Assembly (NCBI GenBank): GCA_023150455.1
Contig: JAKLKW010000026.1
Span: 41,982 to 105,981 of the forward strand
DNA length: 64,000 bases
From: Alphaproteobacteria bacterium
GTDB lineage: Bacteria > Pseudomonadota > Alphaproteobacteria > JAEULC01
Direction of reading: 5' to 3'
Below the pieces are notes generated by a model, which was given only the letters and a program-made list of their open reading frames with translations, was not told where the DNA came from and did no database searches. Shown piece by piece: positions 3,903 to 41,603 of the stretch; within the stretch, counting starts at the first letter, position 1, and each line of letters begins with the position of its first letter. A program made the translations under genes and the position numbers.

Positions 3903-5498
3903 TCACGCCCCCGCCACCCCGATCGACGCCAGCCTCACCTCCTCCAGGTCCAGCTCGCGCTGCAGGCGCTGCCACGCCTCGTCGCCGATCTGGCCGTCGC
4001 GGCGGAGCTTGATCAGGCGGCGGCGCGCGGCGCCAAGCGCGGCCAGGTGCGCGGCGTGGTAGGCGCCCGCGGCGGCGCCCGACGGGCGCTGGAGGAAGTC
4101 GCCGAAGAGCGCCTCGACATCGGCCAGGCGATGGCCGTAGCCGTCGCGGATCGTGTGCGCGACCTCGGCCGGGACCCTGCCCGACTTCGCCATCTCGTCG
4201 ATCTCGGCCATTGCGGCGTGGATGCTCTTGGCCCGCGCCAGGCGTTCCTCGGCGTCGGTGTCGCAATCGGCGCCGACGCCCAAGCGGCGGATGACGAAGC
4301 CCAGCGTGCCGCCCTGCAGCACCAGCGTCGCGAGGATGACGGCGTAGGTCAGGAACAGGATCAGCTCGCGCTGCGGGAAGGGCTCGCCGTCGTGCATGGT
4401 GAGCGGCAGGGCCAGCGCCATCACGAGCGAGACCACGCCGCGCATGCCGGACCAGCCGACGATGACGAGGTGGCGCCAGGGCAGCTCCGACGCGCGGCGC
4501 CGGAGCGTCGGCACCGCGATCTCGCGCCCGTAGGCGGCGCCGAAGACGACGAGGAAACGCAGCGCGATCACGGCCGCCGACACCACGACCGCGCAGAGCG
4601 CGAGCGTCGACAGGGGATAGCCGGCGAGTCCTTCCATCACCTGGGGCAGCATGAGCCCGATCAGGATGAACACGACGGTGTTGATCAGGAACACGATGAC
4701 ATCCCACACCGCATAGGCCTGGATGCGGGTCTGCGCCGAGAACACCTCGGGCGCGTGCCAGCCGCGCACGAGGCCGGCCGCCACCACGGCGAGGACGGCG
4801 GAGACGTGCAGCTTTTCGGCCGCGATGAACACGGCAAATGGGAAGACGAGCGAGAAGGCGATCTCGCTCATGGGATCGGCGATGCGCCGCTGCACATGCA
4901 CGGACAGGTAGCCGGCGGCCGCGCCGATCACGGTGCCGCCCGTCGCCAGGAACAGGAACTGCAGGCCCGGCCCGGGGAAGGAGAAGGACCAGGCTCCCGC
5001 CAGCGCCGCCGCCAGGGCGAAGCGGAAGAAAACGAGACCGGCGGCATCGTTCACCAGGCTCTCGCCCTCGATCACGGTGACGATGCGCCGGGGCACGCGC
5101 ACGTTGCGCATGATCGCCGTCGCGGCGACCGCGTCGGAGGGCGAGACGATGGCGCCGAGCACCAGCGCGGCGGTCCAGGGCATGGCCGGCACGATCAGCT
5201 TGGCGACCGCGGCGACGCCGAGCGTGGTGACCAGTACCAAGCCGATCGCGAGCAGGCCGATCGGCTTGATGTTGGCGCGGAAGTCGCGCCAGGAGGTGAA
5301 GATCGCCGCCTGGTAGAGGATCGGCGGCAGCACGAGGGTCAGCGCCAGCTCGGGATCGACCGCGATCGCCGGCAGCCCGGGGATGAAGCTGACGGCGAGC
5401 CCGCCCAGCACCAGCGCGATCGGATAGGGCACGCGCGTCTGCCGCGCGAGCAGCCCCAGCACGATGCCGCCGGCGATGAGCGCAAGGATTTCCGTCAT
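3903..5498 (-). CDS. Na+/H+ antiporter, CPA1 (NhaP-type) family
   Basis: 531 aa, multi-TM protein with a C-terminal cytoplasmic regulatory tail. The ILxxAIVSPSDAVAATAI motif matches. Confidence 0.8.
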   Translation of the reverse strand: MTEILALIAGGIVLGLLARQTRVPYPIALVLGGLAVSFIPGLPAIAVDPELALTLVLPPILYQAAIFTSWRDFRANIKPIGLLAIGLVLVTTLGVAAVAKLIVPAMPWTAALVLGAIVSPSDAVAATAIMRNVRVPRRIVTVIEGESLVNDAAGLVFFRFALAAALAGAWSFSFPGPGLQFLFLATGGTVIGAAAGYLSVHVQRRIADPMSEIAFSLVFPFAVFIAAEKLHVSAVLAVVAAGLVRGWHAPEVFSAQTRIQAYAVWDVIVFLINTVVFILIGLMLPQVMEGLAGYPLSTLALCAVVVSAAVIALRFLVVFGAAYGREIAVPTLRRRASELPWRHLVIVGWSGMRGVVSLVMALALPLTMHDGEPFPQRELILFLTYAVILATLVLQGGTLGFVIRRLGVGADCDTDAEERLARAKSIHAAMAEIDEMAKSGRVPAEVAHTIRDGYGHRLADVEALFGDFLQRPSGAAAGAYHAAHLAALGAARRRLIKLRRDGQIGDEAWQRLQRELDLEEVRLASIGVAGA

Positions 5499-38669: not shown

Positions 38670-38867
38670 CCTGTACCTATCTCCCGGTCTCGGCCGCGGT
38701 TCGGGTCCGCGGTCCCATTCGCGTGCGGAAACATAGCGTTGAGCGGGGGTACGAAACCATCCCGGCAACAGGCCGGAATGGGGCTCCGGCCGAGATACGA
38801 CCCGCCTGTTGCCAAAATGCAACTATATCCCCTTGACACATGTAAGCCCGTTTGGTAGCTTCGGGGC

Positions 38868-39770
38868 ATGAAACAGAAGCCGCCCACCATCCGTCAGTTC
38901 CTGGTTCAGTTCCCGACCGATGATGCGTGTCTGGATCACTTGATGCGCGTCCGCTACGGCGACCGCTTCGCCTGTTCCAAGTGCGGCCGGGAAGCGCACT
39001 ACTACCGGGTCAAGACGCGGCGTTGCTACGAGTGCGAGTTCTGCGCCAATCAGATTTATCCGACCGCTGGCACGCCGTTCGAAAAGACGCGGACCAGCCT
39101 CAAGGATTGGTACTACGTCATGTTCCTGTTCTGCGCGACGCGGAACGGAGTCAGTTCCAAGGAAGTGCAGCGCCAGCTCGGCGTGACTTATAAGACCGCT
39201 TGGCGCATGACGCACGAAATTCGCAAGTACATGGGCGCAGTGGACGGCGATTTCCCGATGGGCGGCAGCGACGACGGCGAGCCGGTTGTCGAAATCGACA
39301 AGACGTTCATCGGCGGCAAGCACCCGCGCAAGGCGAACAAGCGCAAGGCCGTGGTGCTGGGCATGGTCGAGCGCGGCGGCGATGTGATCTCCAAGGTCGT
39401 GCGCGACCGCAGCAAGAAAAGCGTGCTACCGCACATCAAGGAATGGGTTGAGGAAGGCTCGCGCGTCGCCACGGACGAAGCCAAGGCTTTCGCTGATCTA
39501 CATGAGGACGGCTACCAGCACGCGACCGTCAATCACACTGAGAAAGAGTACGTGCGCGGCGACGTGCACACGAACACGATCGAGTCCTACTGGTCAGCCG
39601 TGAAGCGGACGATCAAGGGGACTTACGTTTGGGTTTCGAAGAAGCACCTGCAAAAGTACCTGTGGGAGTGCGAGTACCGGCATAATCTGCGCCGCTCGCC
39701 TCACCTGATGTTTGACGTGCTGTTGGCTTCTTTCCCGAAGCCGGCAGCATTCCCCGCGCCATCGCACTAA
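38868..39770 (+). CDS. IS1595-family transposase (N-terminal zinc ribbon plus DDE domain)
   Basis: The N-terminus MKQKPPTIRQFLVQFPTDDACLDHLMRVRYGDRFACSKCG is typical of the family. Confidence 0.85.
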   Translation: MKQKPPTIRQFLVQFPTDDACLDHLMRVRYGDRFACSKCGREAHYYRVKTRRCYECEFCANQIYPTAGTPFEKTRTSLKDWYYVMFLFCATRNGVSSKEVQRQLGVTYKTAWRMTHEIRKYMGAVDGDFPMGGSDDGEPVVEIDKTFIGGKHPRKANKRKAVVLGMVERGGDVISKVVRDRSKKSVLPHIKEWVEEGSRVATDEAKAFADLHEDGYQHATVNHTEKEYVRGDVHTNTIESYWSAVKRTIKGTYVWVSKKHLQKYLWECEYRHNLRRSPHLMFDVLLASFPKPAAFPAPSH

Positions 39771-39865
39771 GGAGACGATCAAATCGTTGCTCGATGGGAA
39801 GTTTCGATTTGTTGCTCATCTTAGTTTCGCATCGCTGATGTAAAGACTGACAATCTCACCATCCT

Positions 39866-40546
39866 TCAAGACCGGCTTGGCCGTGAGTTCAACATCACGC
39901 TGGGCAGCGTGCTCATATCACCAACCTCCAACGGTTCCTTCGATTTCAACACCTCCGCAATCGGTTCATCGATGACAACGGGGGCCGTGACTAACGCCCG
40001 GCCAAAAGCGATGGTTCGGCATGATTGGCCGACAGGCTCGGGAACCTTTTGGAGAGCGGGCGTGAGAAGCGATGTGAGTTTCGTTACGTGCTCCTGCAAC
40101 CAGGCTTTATCGCGCAAATGCCCTTGGTGCACATCACGCGCAAACTCACCGTGGCTTTTTGTTATATCGGCTATCTGGTCAAGCATCTTATCCGCCTCGG
40201 CTTTTCTACCGATGCGCCAGTTGATTACTGAGCCAAATATCTTCGGGAGAACGGTTTCGGCCAGTTCGCATAGCAGCGGTGCGTAGAGGGGAAGGCTGCC
40301 TGTCGCCATAAGCGCCATGACCTCGTAAATGAGTGATCCCGCTTTGGGCGGCCCCACATACACGCGCACCTGATACAGCCTCGGGTCTCGGCTGACTTGG
40401 CCGGCGAGCCAAAAATGAATGAGGCTGTTTGAAACACGACTTAGCCCGACTAGCGACTCGCCAAGTTGTTGCGCATCCACAAGCGAATCGTCGGCGTAAA
40501 GACCGGCATACTCCAATGGGATCGGCCGGAAAATTCCCTGCGGCAT
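39866..40546 (-). CDS. Hypothetical protein (IS passenger), unknown function
   Basis: 226 aa. GC is about 52%. A GGGGGGAG SD precedes the ATG, and a perfect palindrome lies further upstream. Confidence 0.5.
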   Translation of the reverse strand: MPQGIFRPIPLEYAGLYADDSLVDAQQLGESLVGLSRVSNSLIHFWLAGQVSRDPRLYQVRVYVGPPKAGSLIYEVMALMATGSLPLYAPLLCELAETVLPKIFGSVINWRIGRKAEADKMLDQIADITKSHGEFARDVHQGHLRDKAWLQEHVTKLTSLLTPALQKVPEPVGQSCRTIAFGRALVTAPVVIDEPIAEVLKSKEPLEVGDMSTLPSVMLNSRPSRS

Positions 40547-40652
40547 ATGCTCCCCCCAACCTTATTGGTTGGGGAAACATTATCATCAGCATCGAAATGC
40601 GCATCACATGTTTATGGGGGATATAGTTGCCAAAATGCAACGGACGCCCGGG

Positions 40653-41603
40653 TCAGAACCGGCGTTTGAAGCGCTCCGTCGCGCCGACCAGGGCGGAACG
40701 CACGCCGGGTTCCATGGCCGAATGCCCGGCATCGGCGACGACCGTGAATTCGGAGCCGGGCCAGGCCCGCGCCAGCATGTCGGCGGTGCCGATCGGGCAG
40801 ACCATGTCGTAGCGGCCGTGCACGATCACGGCCGGCAGCCGCGCGACGCGCGGCAGATTGTCCATCAGCGCATCGGGCGGCAGGAAGATGCGGTTGACGA
40901 AGTAGTGCGCCTCGATCCGCGCGAGCGCGAGCGCAACGCGATAGTCGTTGACGGCGGCGACGTTGTCGGCGTTCGGCAACAGCGTCGAGCAGGCGGCCTC
41001 GTAGGCGCTCCAGGCGCGCGCCGCGGGACGATGCACCGCCGGATCGGGATTGTTCAGCCGGCGATGGTAGTTGGTCAGGAGATCGCCGCGCTCGGCCTCG
41101 GGCAGGAATCCGGCAAAGGCGCGATGCGCCTCGGGAAACACCTGCGCCAGGCCGTGGAGGAACCAGTCGACCTCGTTGTCGCGGCACAGGAAGATGCCGC
41201 GCAGCACGAAGCCTAGGCAGTGCTGCGGATGCGCCTCGCCGTAGGCCAGCGCCAGCGTGCTGCCCCACGAGCCGCCGAACAGCAGCCAGCGATCGATGCC
41301 GAGCAGGTTGCGCAACATCTCGATGTCGGCAATGAGGTGCTGGGTGGTATTGTCGGCAAGCTCCGCCGTCGGCGTCGAGCGCCCGGCGCCGCGCTGGTCG
41401 AATACCACGACCCGATAGAACGACGGGTCGAAGAAGCGCCGATGCGCCGGCGTCGCGCCGGCGCCGGGGCCGCCGTGCAGGAACAGCACGGGCACGCCGG
41501 ACGGATTGCCGCACTCCTCGTAATAGAGGCTGTGCCGCCCGTCCGGACGAAGCGTTCCCGTGCTATAAGGCTCGATGGGTGGAAAGAGGTCGGTACGGGC
41601 CAT
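40653..41603 (-). CDS. pip: Proline iminopeptidase (alpha/beta hydrolase, S33 family)
   Basis: GGSWGSTLAL nucleophile elbow and the Pip-type N-terminus. Confidence 0.8.
   Translation of the reverse strand: MARTDLFPPIEPYSTGTLRPDGRHSLYYEECGNPSGVPVLFLHGGPGAGATPAHRRFFDPSFYRVVVFDQRGAGRSTPTAELADNTTQHLIADIEMLRNLLGIDRWLLFGGSWGSTLALAYGEAHPQHCLGFVLRGIFLCRDNEVDWFLHGLAQVFPEAHRAFAGFLPEAERGDLLTNYHRRLNNPDPAVHRPAARAWSAYEAACSTLLPNADNVAAVNDYRVALALARIEAHYFVNRIFLPPDALMDNLPRVARLPAVIVHGRYDMVCPIGTADMLARAWPGSEFTVVADAGHSAMEPGVRSALVGATERFKRRF

What the first reader, a model, noticed from the sequence alone, without database searches (positions are those of the whole stretch)
38808..40637. IS1595-family element with a lower-GC passenger gene and an unusual 16-bp direct-repeat border
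The transposase (38868-39770) has the IS1595 zinc-ribbon N-terminus. The element ends are 9-bp perfect inverted repeats, TATATCCCC and GGGGATATA. Each end is abutted by an identical 16-bp palindromic sequence, GTTGCCAAAATGCAAC, in direct orientation. Those 16 bp could be a target-site duplication, which would be long for this family (usually 8 bp). They could instead be part of extended 25-bp imperfect IRs. Inside the element, convergent with the transposase, lies a 226-aa ORF with about 52% GC against about 68% for the backbone. It has its own strong SD and no recognisable motif. Passenger genes are known in some IS1595 subgroups. This passenger may be a mobile accessory or defence function.
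Basis: seen in the sequence. Interest (0 to 1): 0.6.

Follow-up and report, generated by a model that had tools for sequence, protein, structure and literature searches.

The report
IS1595 insertion sequence carrying broken cargo gene
This is an ordinary IS1595-family mobile element with the family's usual 8-bp target duplication; it landed in a small conserved hairpin, which makes the border repeat look 16 bp long, and the cargo gene it carries is broken in this copy.

Summary
The sequence features are real, but the unusual part has an ordinary explanation. The element is a single-copy IS1595-family "transporter IS" at 38820-40629. It has 13-bp perfect terminal inverted repeats (CAACTATATCCCC / GGGGATATAGTTG) and an 8-bp target-site duplication, CCAAAATG.

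36 related elements (38 in the target-site analysis) all show an 8-bp duplication abutting ends with TATCCC at positions 7-12. That fixes the boundaries here.

The 16-bp direct repeat is 4 nt of target flank, plus the 8-bp duplication, plus the 4-nt IS tip. Genomes with 92% and 83% identical pip genes keep pip-pagL synteny without the IS. They carry one homologous copy of the 16-mer as a conserved hairpin just after the pip stop. So GTTG and CAAC are ancestral target arms, and the IS hit the AT-rich loop.

The passenger does have a recognisable family. It is a DUF7946+DUF7947 protein: a helical N-domain and a C-terminal OB-fold. It is 289 aa in otherwise identical public contigs. In this window a 139-bp deletion removes the most conserved segment and shifts the frame, giving the 226-aa ORF.

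The family has no known function and no match to known defence models. Verdict: a new member of a known kind, of low to moderate interest.

The parts
38808..38811 (.). GTTG: left arm of the pre-existing target hairpin. This is flank, not IS and not duplication.
   Evidence: The empty-site alignment shows GTTG...CAAC arms around a single loop in the uninterrupted relative L116.
38812..38819 (.). Left copy of the 8-bp target-site duplication, CCAAAATG.
   Evidence: The register is fixed by 36 related elements with 8-bp duplications abutting ends of the form NNNNNNTATCCC.
38820..38843 (+). Left terminal inverted repeat: CAACTATATCCCCTTGACACATGT. The first 13 nt pair perfectly with the right end. 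It contains the family-conserved TTGACA at 38833-38838, a likely -35 element for the transposase.
   Evidence: (I1) and the IR alignments. The promoter role is inferred; the strict consensus scan found no promoter.
38868..39770 (+). IS1595-family transposase, 300 aa: zinc ribbon, HTH and DDE domain. Candidate catalytic residues are D144, D203 and E239, with K246.
   Evidence: Invariant or near-invariant columns in a 36-sequence alignment.
39766..39825 (.). Imperfect hairpin between the convergent stop codons of the transposase and the intact passenger. Possibly a bidirectional terminator.
   Evidence: I7: 21-nt arms, 76%; MFE -22.8, z = -1.15, not significant.
39816..39902 (-). Out-of-frame remnant encoding the last 28 residues and stop of the intact passenger (QRDVELTAKPVLKDGEIVSLYISDAKLR*).
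   Evidence: compared with the L001 ORF.
39904..39905 (.). Junction of a 139-bp deletion relative to otherwise 100% identical public contigs (L001 5038-5176). In the intact version the deleted segment is bordered by the inverted hexamers ACGCTG and CAGCGT.
   Evidence: BLASTN of the window against L001-L008 and the L001 sequence.
39866..40546 (-). Truncated passenger ORF of 226 aa. Residues 1-214 are identical to the 289-aa DUF7946+DUF7947 protein, followed by a frameshifted 12-aa tail. Probably a pseudogene.
   Evidence: The deleted residues include the family-invariant I243, D245, P246 and Y255.
40553..40573 (-). Perfect 8-bp hairpin (CCCCAACC / GGTTGGGG) abutting the Shine-Dalgarno run (GGGGGGAG) of the passenger.
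   Evidence: Sequence and fold. Any regulatory role is inferred.
40606..40629 (-). Right terminal inverted repeat: ACATGTTTATGGGGGATATAGTTG.
   Evidence: (I1).
40630..40637 (.). Right copy of the 8-bp target-site duplication, CCAAAATG.
40638..40641 (.). CAAC: right arm of the pre-existing target hairpin (flank). It lies 11 nt from the stop codon of pip (40653-41603, minus strand).

Best explanation
The feature is a single-copy transporter IS (an insertion sequence carrying a passenger gene) of the IS1595 family. Its ends and DDE(K) motif fit the ISNwi1-like group.

**Anatomy.** The element spans 38820-40629. It is 1810 bp here and 1949 bp in the intact version found in public contigs.

**How it moves.** The zinc-ribbon/HTH/DDE transposase binds the terminal inverted repeats (CAACTATATCCCC...). 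It cuts the target with an 8-bp stagger, and gap repair duplicates CCAAAATG. Catalysis and the promoter in the left repeat are inferred from the family.

**Where it landed.** Like its relatives, the element prefers AT-rich 8-mers (symmetrised consensus nAAATTTn). In this 69% GC genome it landed in the AT-rich loop of a small conserved hairpin, GTTGC-N6-GCAAC, 11 nt downstream of the pip stop codon.

**Why the repeat looks 16 bp long.** The two hairpin arms (GTTG, CAAC) happen to equal the two 4-nt IS tips (GTTG at the right end, CAAC at the left). Each junction therefore reads GTTG+CCAAAATG+CAAC.

**The passenger.**
- It lies convergent with the transposase and reads inward from the right end.
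- It encodes a two-domain protein: DUF7946, a helical domain, and DUF7947, a C-terminal OB-fold.
- In this window a 139-bp internal deletion removes the conserved core of the OB-fold domain and shifts the frame. This copy carries dead cargo.
- My best guess for the intact protein is a nucleic-acid-binding accessory factor in phage-host conflict. That is inference from its genomic contexts, held at low confidence.
For: **Transposase family.** (Pfam and NCBIfam, both far above cut-off). In a 36-sequence alignment D144 and D203 are invariant, and E239 and K246 are at least 90% conserved.

**Boundaries.**
- 36 unique related elements (L009, L032 and viral loci from L035 on) each show an exact 8-bp duplication abutting ends of the form GGnnanTATCCC. 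L030, with a degenerate right end, was read by hand.
- The closest relatives have non-GG tips like the window's: L009 CGCA/CAGA, L032 CGCA/CGCA, L036 CAGC/CAGA, and CAAG at the right end of L030.
- In that register the window gives the duplication CCAAAATG and 13-bp perfect repeats.
- PMC8101967 states that IS1595 members are usually flanked by 8-bp duplications.

**Empty site.**
- L116 (pip 92% aa) and L117-L122 (83%) keep the gene order M48-M48-SNase-pip-PagL-GDSL with no IS.
- The alignment shows one homologous 16-mer after the pip stop: GTTGCATTTTGGCAAC (window, reconstructed), GTTGTAATTCAGCAAC (L116) and GTGGCGGCGATGCCAC (L117, with a compensatory T>G/A>C change).
- All three fold as hairpins.

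**AT-rich target.** Duplications average 76% AT. Flank AT ranges from 30 to 70%, mostly 40-60%.

**Foreign origin.** GC is 0.53-0.62 inside the element and 0.67-0.75 outside.

**Passenger.**
- PF25678 and PF25679 on the 289-aa form.
- 139-bp deletion.
- The deleted residues include the invariant columns I243, D245, P246 and Y255.
- AlphaFold model of the 60%-identical homolog P0002: pLDDT 87, helical N-domain plus beta-barrel.
- OB-fold matches: IF1, CusF/SilF, RuvA domain I, RPA and Ten1, with probability about 1.0 and target-normalised TM 0.5-0.68.

**Cargo is the rule in this group.**
- Most related elements are 1.4-3.6 kb, with one or more genes convergent with the transposase.
- Pfam hits among the cargo: an IrrE-like peptidase, a PAPS-reductase-like protein and an NYN domain protein. 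Methyltransferases were read from sequence motifs only.
- Transporter ISs of the IS1595 family are described in the literature (PMC3129680, citing Siguier 2009).
Against: - **The tip/flank match.** If tips and flanks were independent, the match would have probability about 4^-8. It is about 4^-4 given that both the tips and the target arms are inverted repeats. I call it coincidence, but no second copy of this exact IS at another locus was available to prove that CAAC/GTTG travel with the element.
- **Longer repeats in two relatives.** L030 has a 12-bp repeat and L072 a 13-bp repeat. That leaves some room for a real tip/flank relationship.
- **Unverified steps.** No promoter passed the strict consensus scan. 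Transposition has not been shown experimentally.
- **Subgroup assignment.** The ISNwi1 subgroup definition comes from my memory of ISfinder. No ISfinder search was possible.
- **Passenger function.** It is unknown. PADLOC gave no hit, and PDB sequence and PHROGs searches returned only uncharacterised families.
Confidence: 0.85

Rival explanations
1. The element ends at TATATCCCC / GGGGATATA, and its transposase made an unusually long 16-bp target-site duplication covering the whole hairpin.
For: The 16-mer is identical at both borders and occurs nowhere else in the window. With a single copy, the sequence alone cannot say whether the 4 nt next to TATATCCCC belong to the IS or to the target.
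Against: - All 36 related elements have exactly 8-bp duplications, with TATCCC starting at IS position 7.
- The two closest relatives, L009 and L032, have a 4-nt IS tip between the 8-bp duplication and TATATCCCC. That tip is not duplicated.
- Relatives' tips (CAGC, CAGA, CAAG) resemble CAAC.
- Duplication length is set by transpososome geometry and is constant within families (established knowledge).
Confidence: 0.05
2. The match between the IS tips and the target flanks is not chance. These transposases prefer targets whose flanks mimic the terminal 4-5 nt of the element, or the tips get remodelled from the target. Direct repeats longer than 8 bp would then be a recurring signature.
For: - With the window included, 4 junction sides out of 68 show an extension of 4 nt or more, against 0.12 expected by permutation (0 of 5000 permutations reached this).
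- L030 has a 12-bp repeat.
- L072 has a 13-bp repeat, and its left tip departs from its sibling L080 (CGTAAG against GGTAAG) in the direction of the flank.
Against: - The window was picked because of this feature, so it is an ascertained case. Excluding it, and filtering strictly on the end motif, leaves only L072 among 36 elements (p = 0.03, one event).
- 63 of 72 sides show no extension at all.
- The arms GTTG/CAAC pre-exist in the empty site, so here the flank was not remodelled.
- L030's right end is degenerate, so its register is uncertain.
Confidence: 0.1
3. The passenger is a working mobile defence or anti-defence gene in this genome.
For: - The family recurs as cargo of a second, distantly related IS1595 element (L021-L028; transposase about 30% identical).
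- It occurs next to a solo IS-like repeat in a prophage-like region beside an integrase and what looks like a tRNA 3' end (L033).
- It occurs next to a sequence that looks like a tRNA gene (L029; not scanned with the tRNA tool) and on a viral contig (L115).
- It matches phrog_5147.
- An OB-fold suggests nucleic-acid binding.
Against: - In this window the gene lacks 47 residues, including every invariant position of DUF7947, and is frameshifted.
- PADLOC gave no hit for four full-length members.
- No paper mentions DUF7946.
- No experimental data exist.
Confidence: 0.05

Closest known systems
IS1595 family, ISNwi1-type transporter ISs (ISfinder; Siguier, Gagnevin & Chandler 2009, Res Microbiol 160:232, cited in PMC3129680)
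   Same: - Zinc-ribbon plus DDE_Tnp_IS1595 transposase.
- 8-bp target-site duplication.
- Ends with TAT at positions 7-9.
- A candidate D, D, E, K catalytic set.
- Passenger genes between the inverted repeats.
- Size of about 1.8-2 kb.
   Different: - The outermost 4 nt are CAAC rather than the usual GGnn. The nearest relatives share this C-start variant.
- I do not know of DUF7946/DUF7947 cargo having been described before.
- The subgroup definition is recalled from ISfinder and was not checked against it.
L009 and L032 elements (transposase 74% and 69% identical; Rhodospirillaceae MAG and an ENA metagenome contig)
   Same: - Same inverted-repeat core, TATATCCCC(T/C)...ACATGT.
- 4-nt tip outside that core.
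- 8-bp duplication.
- Transposase at the left end.
   Different: L009 (1195 bp) carries no passenger. L032 (1899 bp) carries a different 175-aa membrane-like ORF. Their tips are CGCA.
L021-L028 element (3184-bp IS1595-family transporter IS from metagenomes)
   Same: Carries a DUF7946+DUF7947 gene (39% identical) inside an IS1595-family element with an 8-bp duplication.
   Different: - The transposase is only about 30% identical.
- The inverted repeats are different (CGGACTTCTGGCGCAA...).
- It carries extra genes (DUF6471 and a 148-aa ORF).
- The gene order differs.
- It is found in both orientations at one site.
Target-site preference of other DDE transposons for symmetric or AT-rich sites (for example IS231 GGG-N5-CCC, Tn10 NGCTNAGCN; recalled from the literature)
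   Same: Insertion centred on a symmetric site, with an AT-rich duplicated core.
   Different: The preference here (nAAATTTn) is derived from only 38 sites. Flank symmetry is not general across those sites.

Membership tests
IS1595 family insertion sequence | Transposase with the DDE_Tnp_IS1595 catalytic domain | tested here: met
   PF12762 at E = 1.5e-39 (135.9 bits, cut-off 27). NF033547 at 196 bits (cut-off 75)..
IS1595 family insertion sequence | N-terminal zinc-ribbon domain (present in all groups except IS1016) | tested here: met
   PF12760 at E = 1.5e-10, residues 16-62. The cysteines are invariant in the alignment..
IS1595 family insertion sequence | 8-bp target-site duplication | tested here: met
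   CCAAAATG at 38812-38819 and 40630-40637. The register is fixed by 36 relatives and by the single-copy empty site.
IS1595 family insertion sequence | Terminal inverted repeats bounding the element | tested here: met
   13 of 13 nt perfect, about 24 nt imperfect.
IS1595 family insertion sequence | Evidence of mobility (an empty site in relatives) | tested here: met
   L116-L122 have pip directly followed by pagL, with one copy of the target hairpin.
ISNwi1 subgroup (definition recalled from ISfinder: ends ggnnatTAT, DDEK + ER4 motif) | End consensus ggnnatTAT | tested here: inconclusive
   TAT at positions 7-9 is present, and the wider clade has GGnnanTATCCC. The window's tips are CAAC, not GG. 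No ISfinder comparison was possible.
ISNwi1 subgroup (definition recalled from ISfinder: ends ggnnatTAT, DDEK + ER4 motif) | D, D, E catalytic triad with K seven residues after E, followed by an E-x3-R motif | tested here: met
   D144 and D203 are invariant. E239 and K246 are at least 90% conserved. E267 and R271 are invariant. Assigning these as the catalytic residues is by position only.
Transporter IS (an IS with passenger genes) | One or more genes unrelated to transposition inside the inverted repeats | tested here: met
   The DUF7946/DUF7947 gene lies between the transposase and the right inverted repeat. It is truncated in this copy.
Known anti-phage defence system | Sequence match to a described defence protein family | tested here: not met
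   PADLOC gave no hits for the window ORF, the intact 289-aa form or three homologs.
Known anti-phage defence system | Protection phenotype | not testable with these tools
   Needs experiments.

The most novel reading that the evidence does not exclude
DUF7946-DUF7947 (a helical domain plus an OB-fold, about 290 aa) may be an undescribed single-gene phage-host conflict factor, either defence or counter-defence. It would spread as cargo of IS1595-family transporter ISs. These ISs are themselves abundant in phage genomes, with 239-282 transposase relatives in IMG/VR and diverse cargo. A secondary possibility is that these elements favour targets whose flanks mimic their own tips.
Probability: 0.15. 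Interest if true: 0.55.

Novelty: new member of a known kind. Interest (0 to 1): 0.25.

Why it matters
- **Annotation.** The element is 38820-40629 with a normal 8-bp duplication, and the 226-aa ORF is a pseudogene fragment. The locus also shows how an insertion into a palindrome whose arms match the IS tips can pass for an abnormally long duplication.
- **IS1595 transporter ISs.** The survey suggests these elements are common in phage and prophage contigs and carry varied cargo.
- **The cargo family.** DUF7946/DUF7947 is small (824 representatives at 50% identity) and uncharacterised. It recurs on two unrelated IS1595 elements and in prophage or island positions, which makes the intact gene a reasonable candidate for a phage-resistance screen.
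- **This locus.** The window copy itself is unlikely to do anything beyond possibly disturbing the hairpin between pip and pagL.

Tried and rejected
- **Exact-protein look-ups** for the transposase, pip and PagL returned only the same occupied locus. They gave no second copy and no empty site. The empty site came later, from pip homologs.
- **Collection scans with the transposase** gave one relative in genome contigs and two in metagenome contigs.
- **Plasmid tblastn** found no close transposase (at most 49% identity), and the passenger hit only two Pantoea proteins at 22% identity.
- **The exact left-repeat 21-mer** has no match in viral contigs.
- **A PDB sequence search** with the passenger profile gave nothing significant.
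- **Literature:** no paper mentions DUF7946. The reviews that define the IS1595 subgroups are not held.
- **16-bp duplication:** considered and rejected, as set out under the rival explanations.
- **The 16-mer as the junction of a circular or tandem form** (right tip + 8 bp + left tip): rejected. The arms exist in the empty site, and similarity to the inverted repeats stops after 4 nt.
- **Tips copied from the target during repair:** rejected. It does not fit the standard strand-transfer and gap-fill mechanism, and it is unnecessary because relatives have similar tips.
- **General tip-mimicry:** tested and found weak.
The 60%-identical P0002 was modelled instead.
Full report
**1. Observation**

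The 16-mer GTTGCCAAAATGCAAC occurs exactly twice in the window, at 38808-38823 and 40626-40641, both on the + strand. Chance would give 0.15 matches even allowing three mismatches.

Inside the two copies lie TATATCCCC (38824-38832) and GGGGATATA (40617-40625). CAACTATATCCCC and GGGGATATAGTTG pair perfectly over 13 nt, and the match continues imperfectly to about 24 nt (I1).

ORF 38868-39770 (+) is an IS1595-family transposase with a zinc ribbon and a DDE domain (PF12760, PF12762, NF033547). ORF 39866-40546 (-) is 226 aa and matches PF25678 (DUF7946) at E = 2.4e-25. So it is not motif-free.

GC falls to 0.53-0.62 inside the element, against 0.67-0.75 outside. There is no second copy of the left repeat or of the 16-mer elsewhere in the window.

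**2. The passenger is truncated in this window**

Public contigs carrying the identical transposase are 100% identical to the window over 3.7 kb, with one exception. These are L001, from GCA_026647135.1, and seven Logan contigs. They hold an extra 139 bp between window positions 39904 and 39905.

With those 139 bp, the passenger is a 289-aa protein carrying DUF7946 and DUF7947.

- The window ORF equals residues 1-214 and then runs out of frame.
- The last 28 codons survive out of frame at 39816-39902.
- In an alignment of 54 family members, the most conserved block is the C-terminal GKITDPAL...NVYTHALDT region.
- All four invariant residues of that domain (I243, D245, P246, Y255) fall in the deleted segment.
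- The 226-aa form does exist in a public record, P0001, 'MAG: Alphaproteobacteria bacterium'. It is therefore a real variant or a MAG assembly difference.

Either way, the copy in this window is most likely a pseudogene.

**3. Where the element ends**

The closest relatives gave the first clue. In both, a 4-nt tip lies between the duplication and TATATCCCC.

| Locus | Transposase identity | Left junction | Right junction | Duplication |
|---|---|---|---|---|
| L009 | 74% | AATTTATC-CGCA-TATATCCCC | GGGGATATA-TCTG-AATTTATC | 8 bp |
| L032 | 69% | CCTTCGCC-CGCA-TATATCCCC | GGGGATATA-TGCG-CCTTCGCC | 8 bp |

I then fetched 160 loci encoding related transposases from viral contigs. A script looked for symmetric inverted-repeat seeds flanked by exact 8-bp direct repeats.

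- 36 unique elements were recovered.
- Every one has an 8-bp duplication directly abutting ends of the form GGnnanTATCCC(C)TTGAC.
- TATCCC therefore occupies IS positions 7-12.

This agrees with the published statement that IS1595 members are usually flanked by 8-bp duplications (PMC8101967). It also agrees with my recollection of the ISfinder end consensus for the ISNwi1 group (ggnnatTAT).

In that register the window element runs from 38820 to 40629, and its duplication is CCAAAATG. The tips CAAC/GTTG resemble those of near relatives: CAGC and CAGA in L036, CAGA in L009, CAAG in L030.

**4. Why the border repeat is 16 bp**

With an 8-bp duplication, the pre-insertion target must have been GTTG-CCAAAATG-CAAC. 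I looked for the empty site through pip homologs.

- L116 (pip 92% identical) and L117-L122 (83%) keep the gene order M48-M48-SNase-pip-PagL-GDSL lipase, with nothing between pip and pagL.
- Aligned in pip orientation, the region 11 nt after the stop codon reads as follows:

| Source | Sequence after the pip stop |
|---|---|
| Window (reconstructed) | GTTGCATTTTGGCAAC |
| L116 | GTTGTAATTCAGCAAC |
| L117 | GTGGCGGCGATGCCAC |

- This is a conserved small hairpin, with a compensatory T>G / A>C change in L117. All three sequences fold that way.

The GTTG and CAAC arms are therefore ancestral flank. The IS inserted into the loop. The apparent 16-bp repeat is flank arm (4 nt) + duplication (8 nt) + IS tip (4 nt) at each junction, because the IS tips happen to equal the hairpin arms.

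The choice of the loop fits a family trend.

- Across 38 reconstructed targets, the duplications are 76% AT. Flank AT ranges from 30 to 70%, mostly 40-60%.
- The symmetrised consensus is close to nAAATTTn.
- In this host the local flanks are 31% AT, and the duplication is 62% AT.

**5. Is the tip/flank match more than chance?**

With the window included, 4 of 68 junction sides show an extension of at least 4 nt, against 0.12 expected. But the window was selected for exactly this feature.

Without it, and with a strict end-motif filter, only L072 remains (13-bp repeat; p = 0.03). 63 of 72 sides show no extension at all. L030 has a 12-bp repeat, but its right end is degenerate.

I treat the match as a coincidence made easier by two symmetric objects meeting: inverted-repeat tips and a palindromic target, giving roughly 1 in 256. 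A real effect remains a low-probability rival.

**6. The passenger family**

*Structure.* An AlphaFold model of the 60%-identical homolog P0002, built from a 53-sequence alignment, is confident (pLDDT 87, pTM 0.85). It shows an N-terminal helical domain and a C-terminal five-strand barrel. The barrel matches OB-folds: IF1, CusF/SilF, RuvA domain I, RPA and Ten1, with Foldseek probability about 1.0 and target-normalised TM 0.5-0.68.

*Other searches.*
- PDB sequence search: nothing.
- PADLOC: nothing for four full-length members.
- PHROGs: phrog_5147, function unknown.
- BFVD: only uncharacterised viral proteins.
- No paper mentions DUF7946.

*Family size.* It is small: 824 representatives at 50% identity with E ≤ 1e-3 among 1.84 billion.

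*Genomic contexts seen.*
1. This IS.
2. A 3184-bp IS1595-family element with a transposase only about 30% identical, plus DUF6471 and a 148-aa ORF (L021-L028).
3. A prophage-like region between lysis genes and an integrase, next to what looks like a tRNA 3' end. Here the gene is preceded about 60 nt upstream by a solo IS1595-type end, GCGCGTTTATCCCCTTGAGG, and there is no transposase (L033/L034).
4. A chromosomal site beside a sequence that looks like a tRNA gene (L029; not scanned with the tRNA tool).
5. A viral contig (L115).

So the gene is a recurrent accessory gene that has ridden IS1595 elements more than once. A role in phage-host conflict is a reasonable guess, but it is untested.

**7. 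Cargo is normal for this IS clade**

- Most of the 36 elements are 1.4-3.6 kb. Typically the transposase sits at the left, with one or more convergent genes reading in from the right end.
- Pfam hits among the cargo: an IrrE-like M78 peptidase, a PAPS-reductase-like protein and an NYN domain protein. Methyltransferases were read from sequence motifs only.
- One further cargo protein gives a weak hit to a PADLOC candidate system, PDC-M34A.
- The nearest transposase relative (P0061, 76%) carries a convergent DUF4747 gene instead.
- Transporter ISs were first defined on the IS1595 family (Siguier 2009, as cited in PMC3129680).

**8. Verdict**

This is an IS1595-family transporter IS of the ISNwi1-like type, with standard ends and a standard 8-bp duplication. 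It is recently mobile relative to its closest sequenced relatives. It inserted into the AT-rich loop of a conserved hairpin downstream of pip, and in this window it carries an inactivated DUF7946/DUF7947 cargo gene.

It is a new member of a known kind. The 16-bp border is explained. What remains of interest is the uncharacterised cargo family and the abundance of such elements in phage genomes.

Noticed in passing
window 39904/39905; L001 5038-5176: The window lacks 139 bp that are present in eight otherwise 100% identical public contigs. In the intact version the deleted segment is bordered by the inverted hexamers ACGCTG and CAGCGT, with no direct-repeat microhomology. This may be hairpin-mediated deletion or a MAG assembly difference.
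   Followed up: partly
window 38806-38823 + 40638-40643 (reconstructed); L116 about 1165-1185; L117 about 3963-3983: A conserved hairpin or palindrome (GTTGC-N6-GCAAC; GTGGC-N6-GCCAC in more distant relatives, a compensatory change) sits 11 nt downstream of the pip stop, in the pip-pagL intergenic region. It has no T-run, so it is not a canonical intrinsic terminator. The IS splits it.
   Followed up: partly
L021-L028 (e.g. L021 3880-7063, L023 1647-4830): A 3184-bp IS1595-family element carrying DUF7946/DUF7947, DUF6471, a transposase and a 148-aa ORF is found in both orientations at the same chromosomal site, with the same 8-bp duplication (GAGAAATG), in different metagenomes. This is consistent with inversion by recombination within the identical outer 16 nt of its inverted repeats, or with repeated insertion at one site.
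   Followed up: partly
L035-L202 (IMG/VR viral contigs): 239-282 relatives of this transposase occur in viral contigs. Most of the 36 elements with defined ends carry cargo. Pfam hits include a PAPS-reductase-like protein, an IrrE-like peptidase and an NYN domain protein; methyltransferases were read from sequence motifs only, and many ORFs are unknown. IS1595 transporter ISs look like a common cargo vehicle in phage genomes.
   Followed up: partly
L072 2349-4020; L030 2952-4999: Two relatives also show direct repeats longer than 8 bp: 13 bp in L072 and 12 bp in L030. In each, the flank beyond the duplication matches the IS tip at the opposite end. L072's left tip (CGTAAG) differs from its sibling L080 (GGTAAG) towards the flank sequence.
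   Followed up: partly
contig of P0061 (JGI 3300059473; no DNA available): The closest transposase relative (76%) has a convergent DUF4747 passenger instead of DUF7946/7947. It also lies next to a PagL-domain gene, though in a different arrangement.
   Followed up: no
L033 3866-3890 and 4809-5040: A 59%-identical passenger homolog sits in a prophage-like region. A solo IS1595-type end (GCGCGTTTATCCCCTTGAGG) lies about 60 nt upstream of its start. Downstream are a terminator hairpin and what looks like a tRNA 3' end, next to an integrase. It looks like a decayed transporter IS that kept its cargo.
   Followed up: partly
window 40553-40573 (minus strand): A perfect 8-bp hairpin (CCCCAACC/GGTTGGGG) directly abuts the G-rich Shine-Dalgarno run of the passenger. 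It might occlude the ribosome-binding site.
   Followed up: partly
38 reconstructed target sites: Target-site duplications of this IS clade are strongly AT-rich: 76% AT, against flank values of 30-70% (mostly 40-60%). The symmetrised consensus is close to nAAATTTn.
   Followed up: yes
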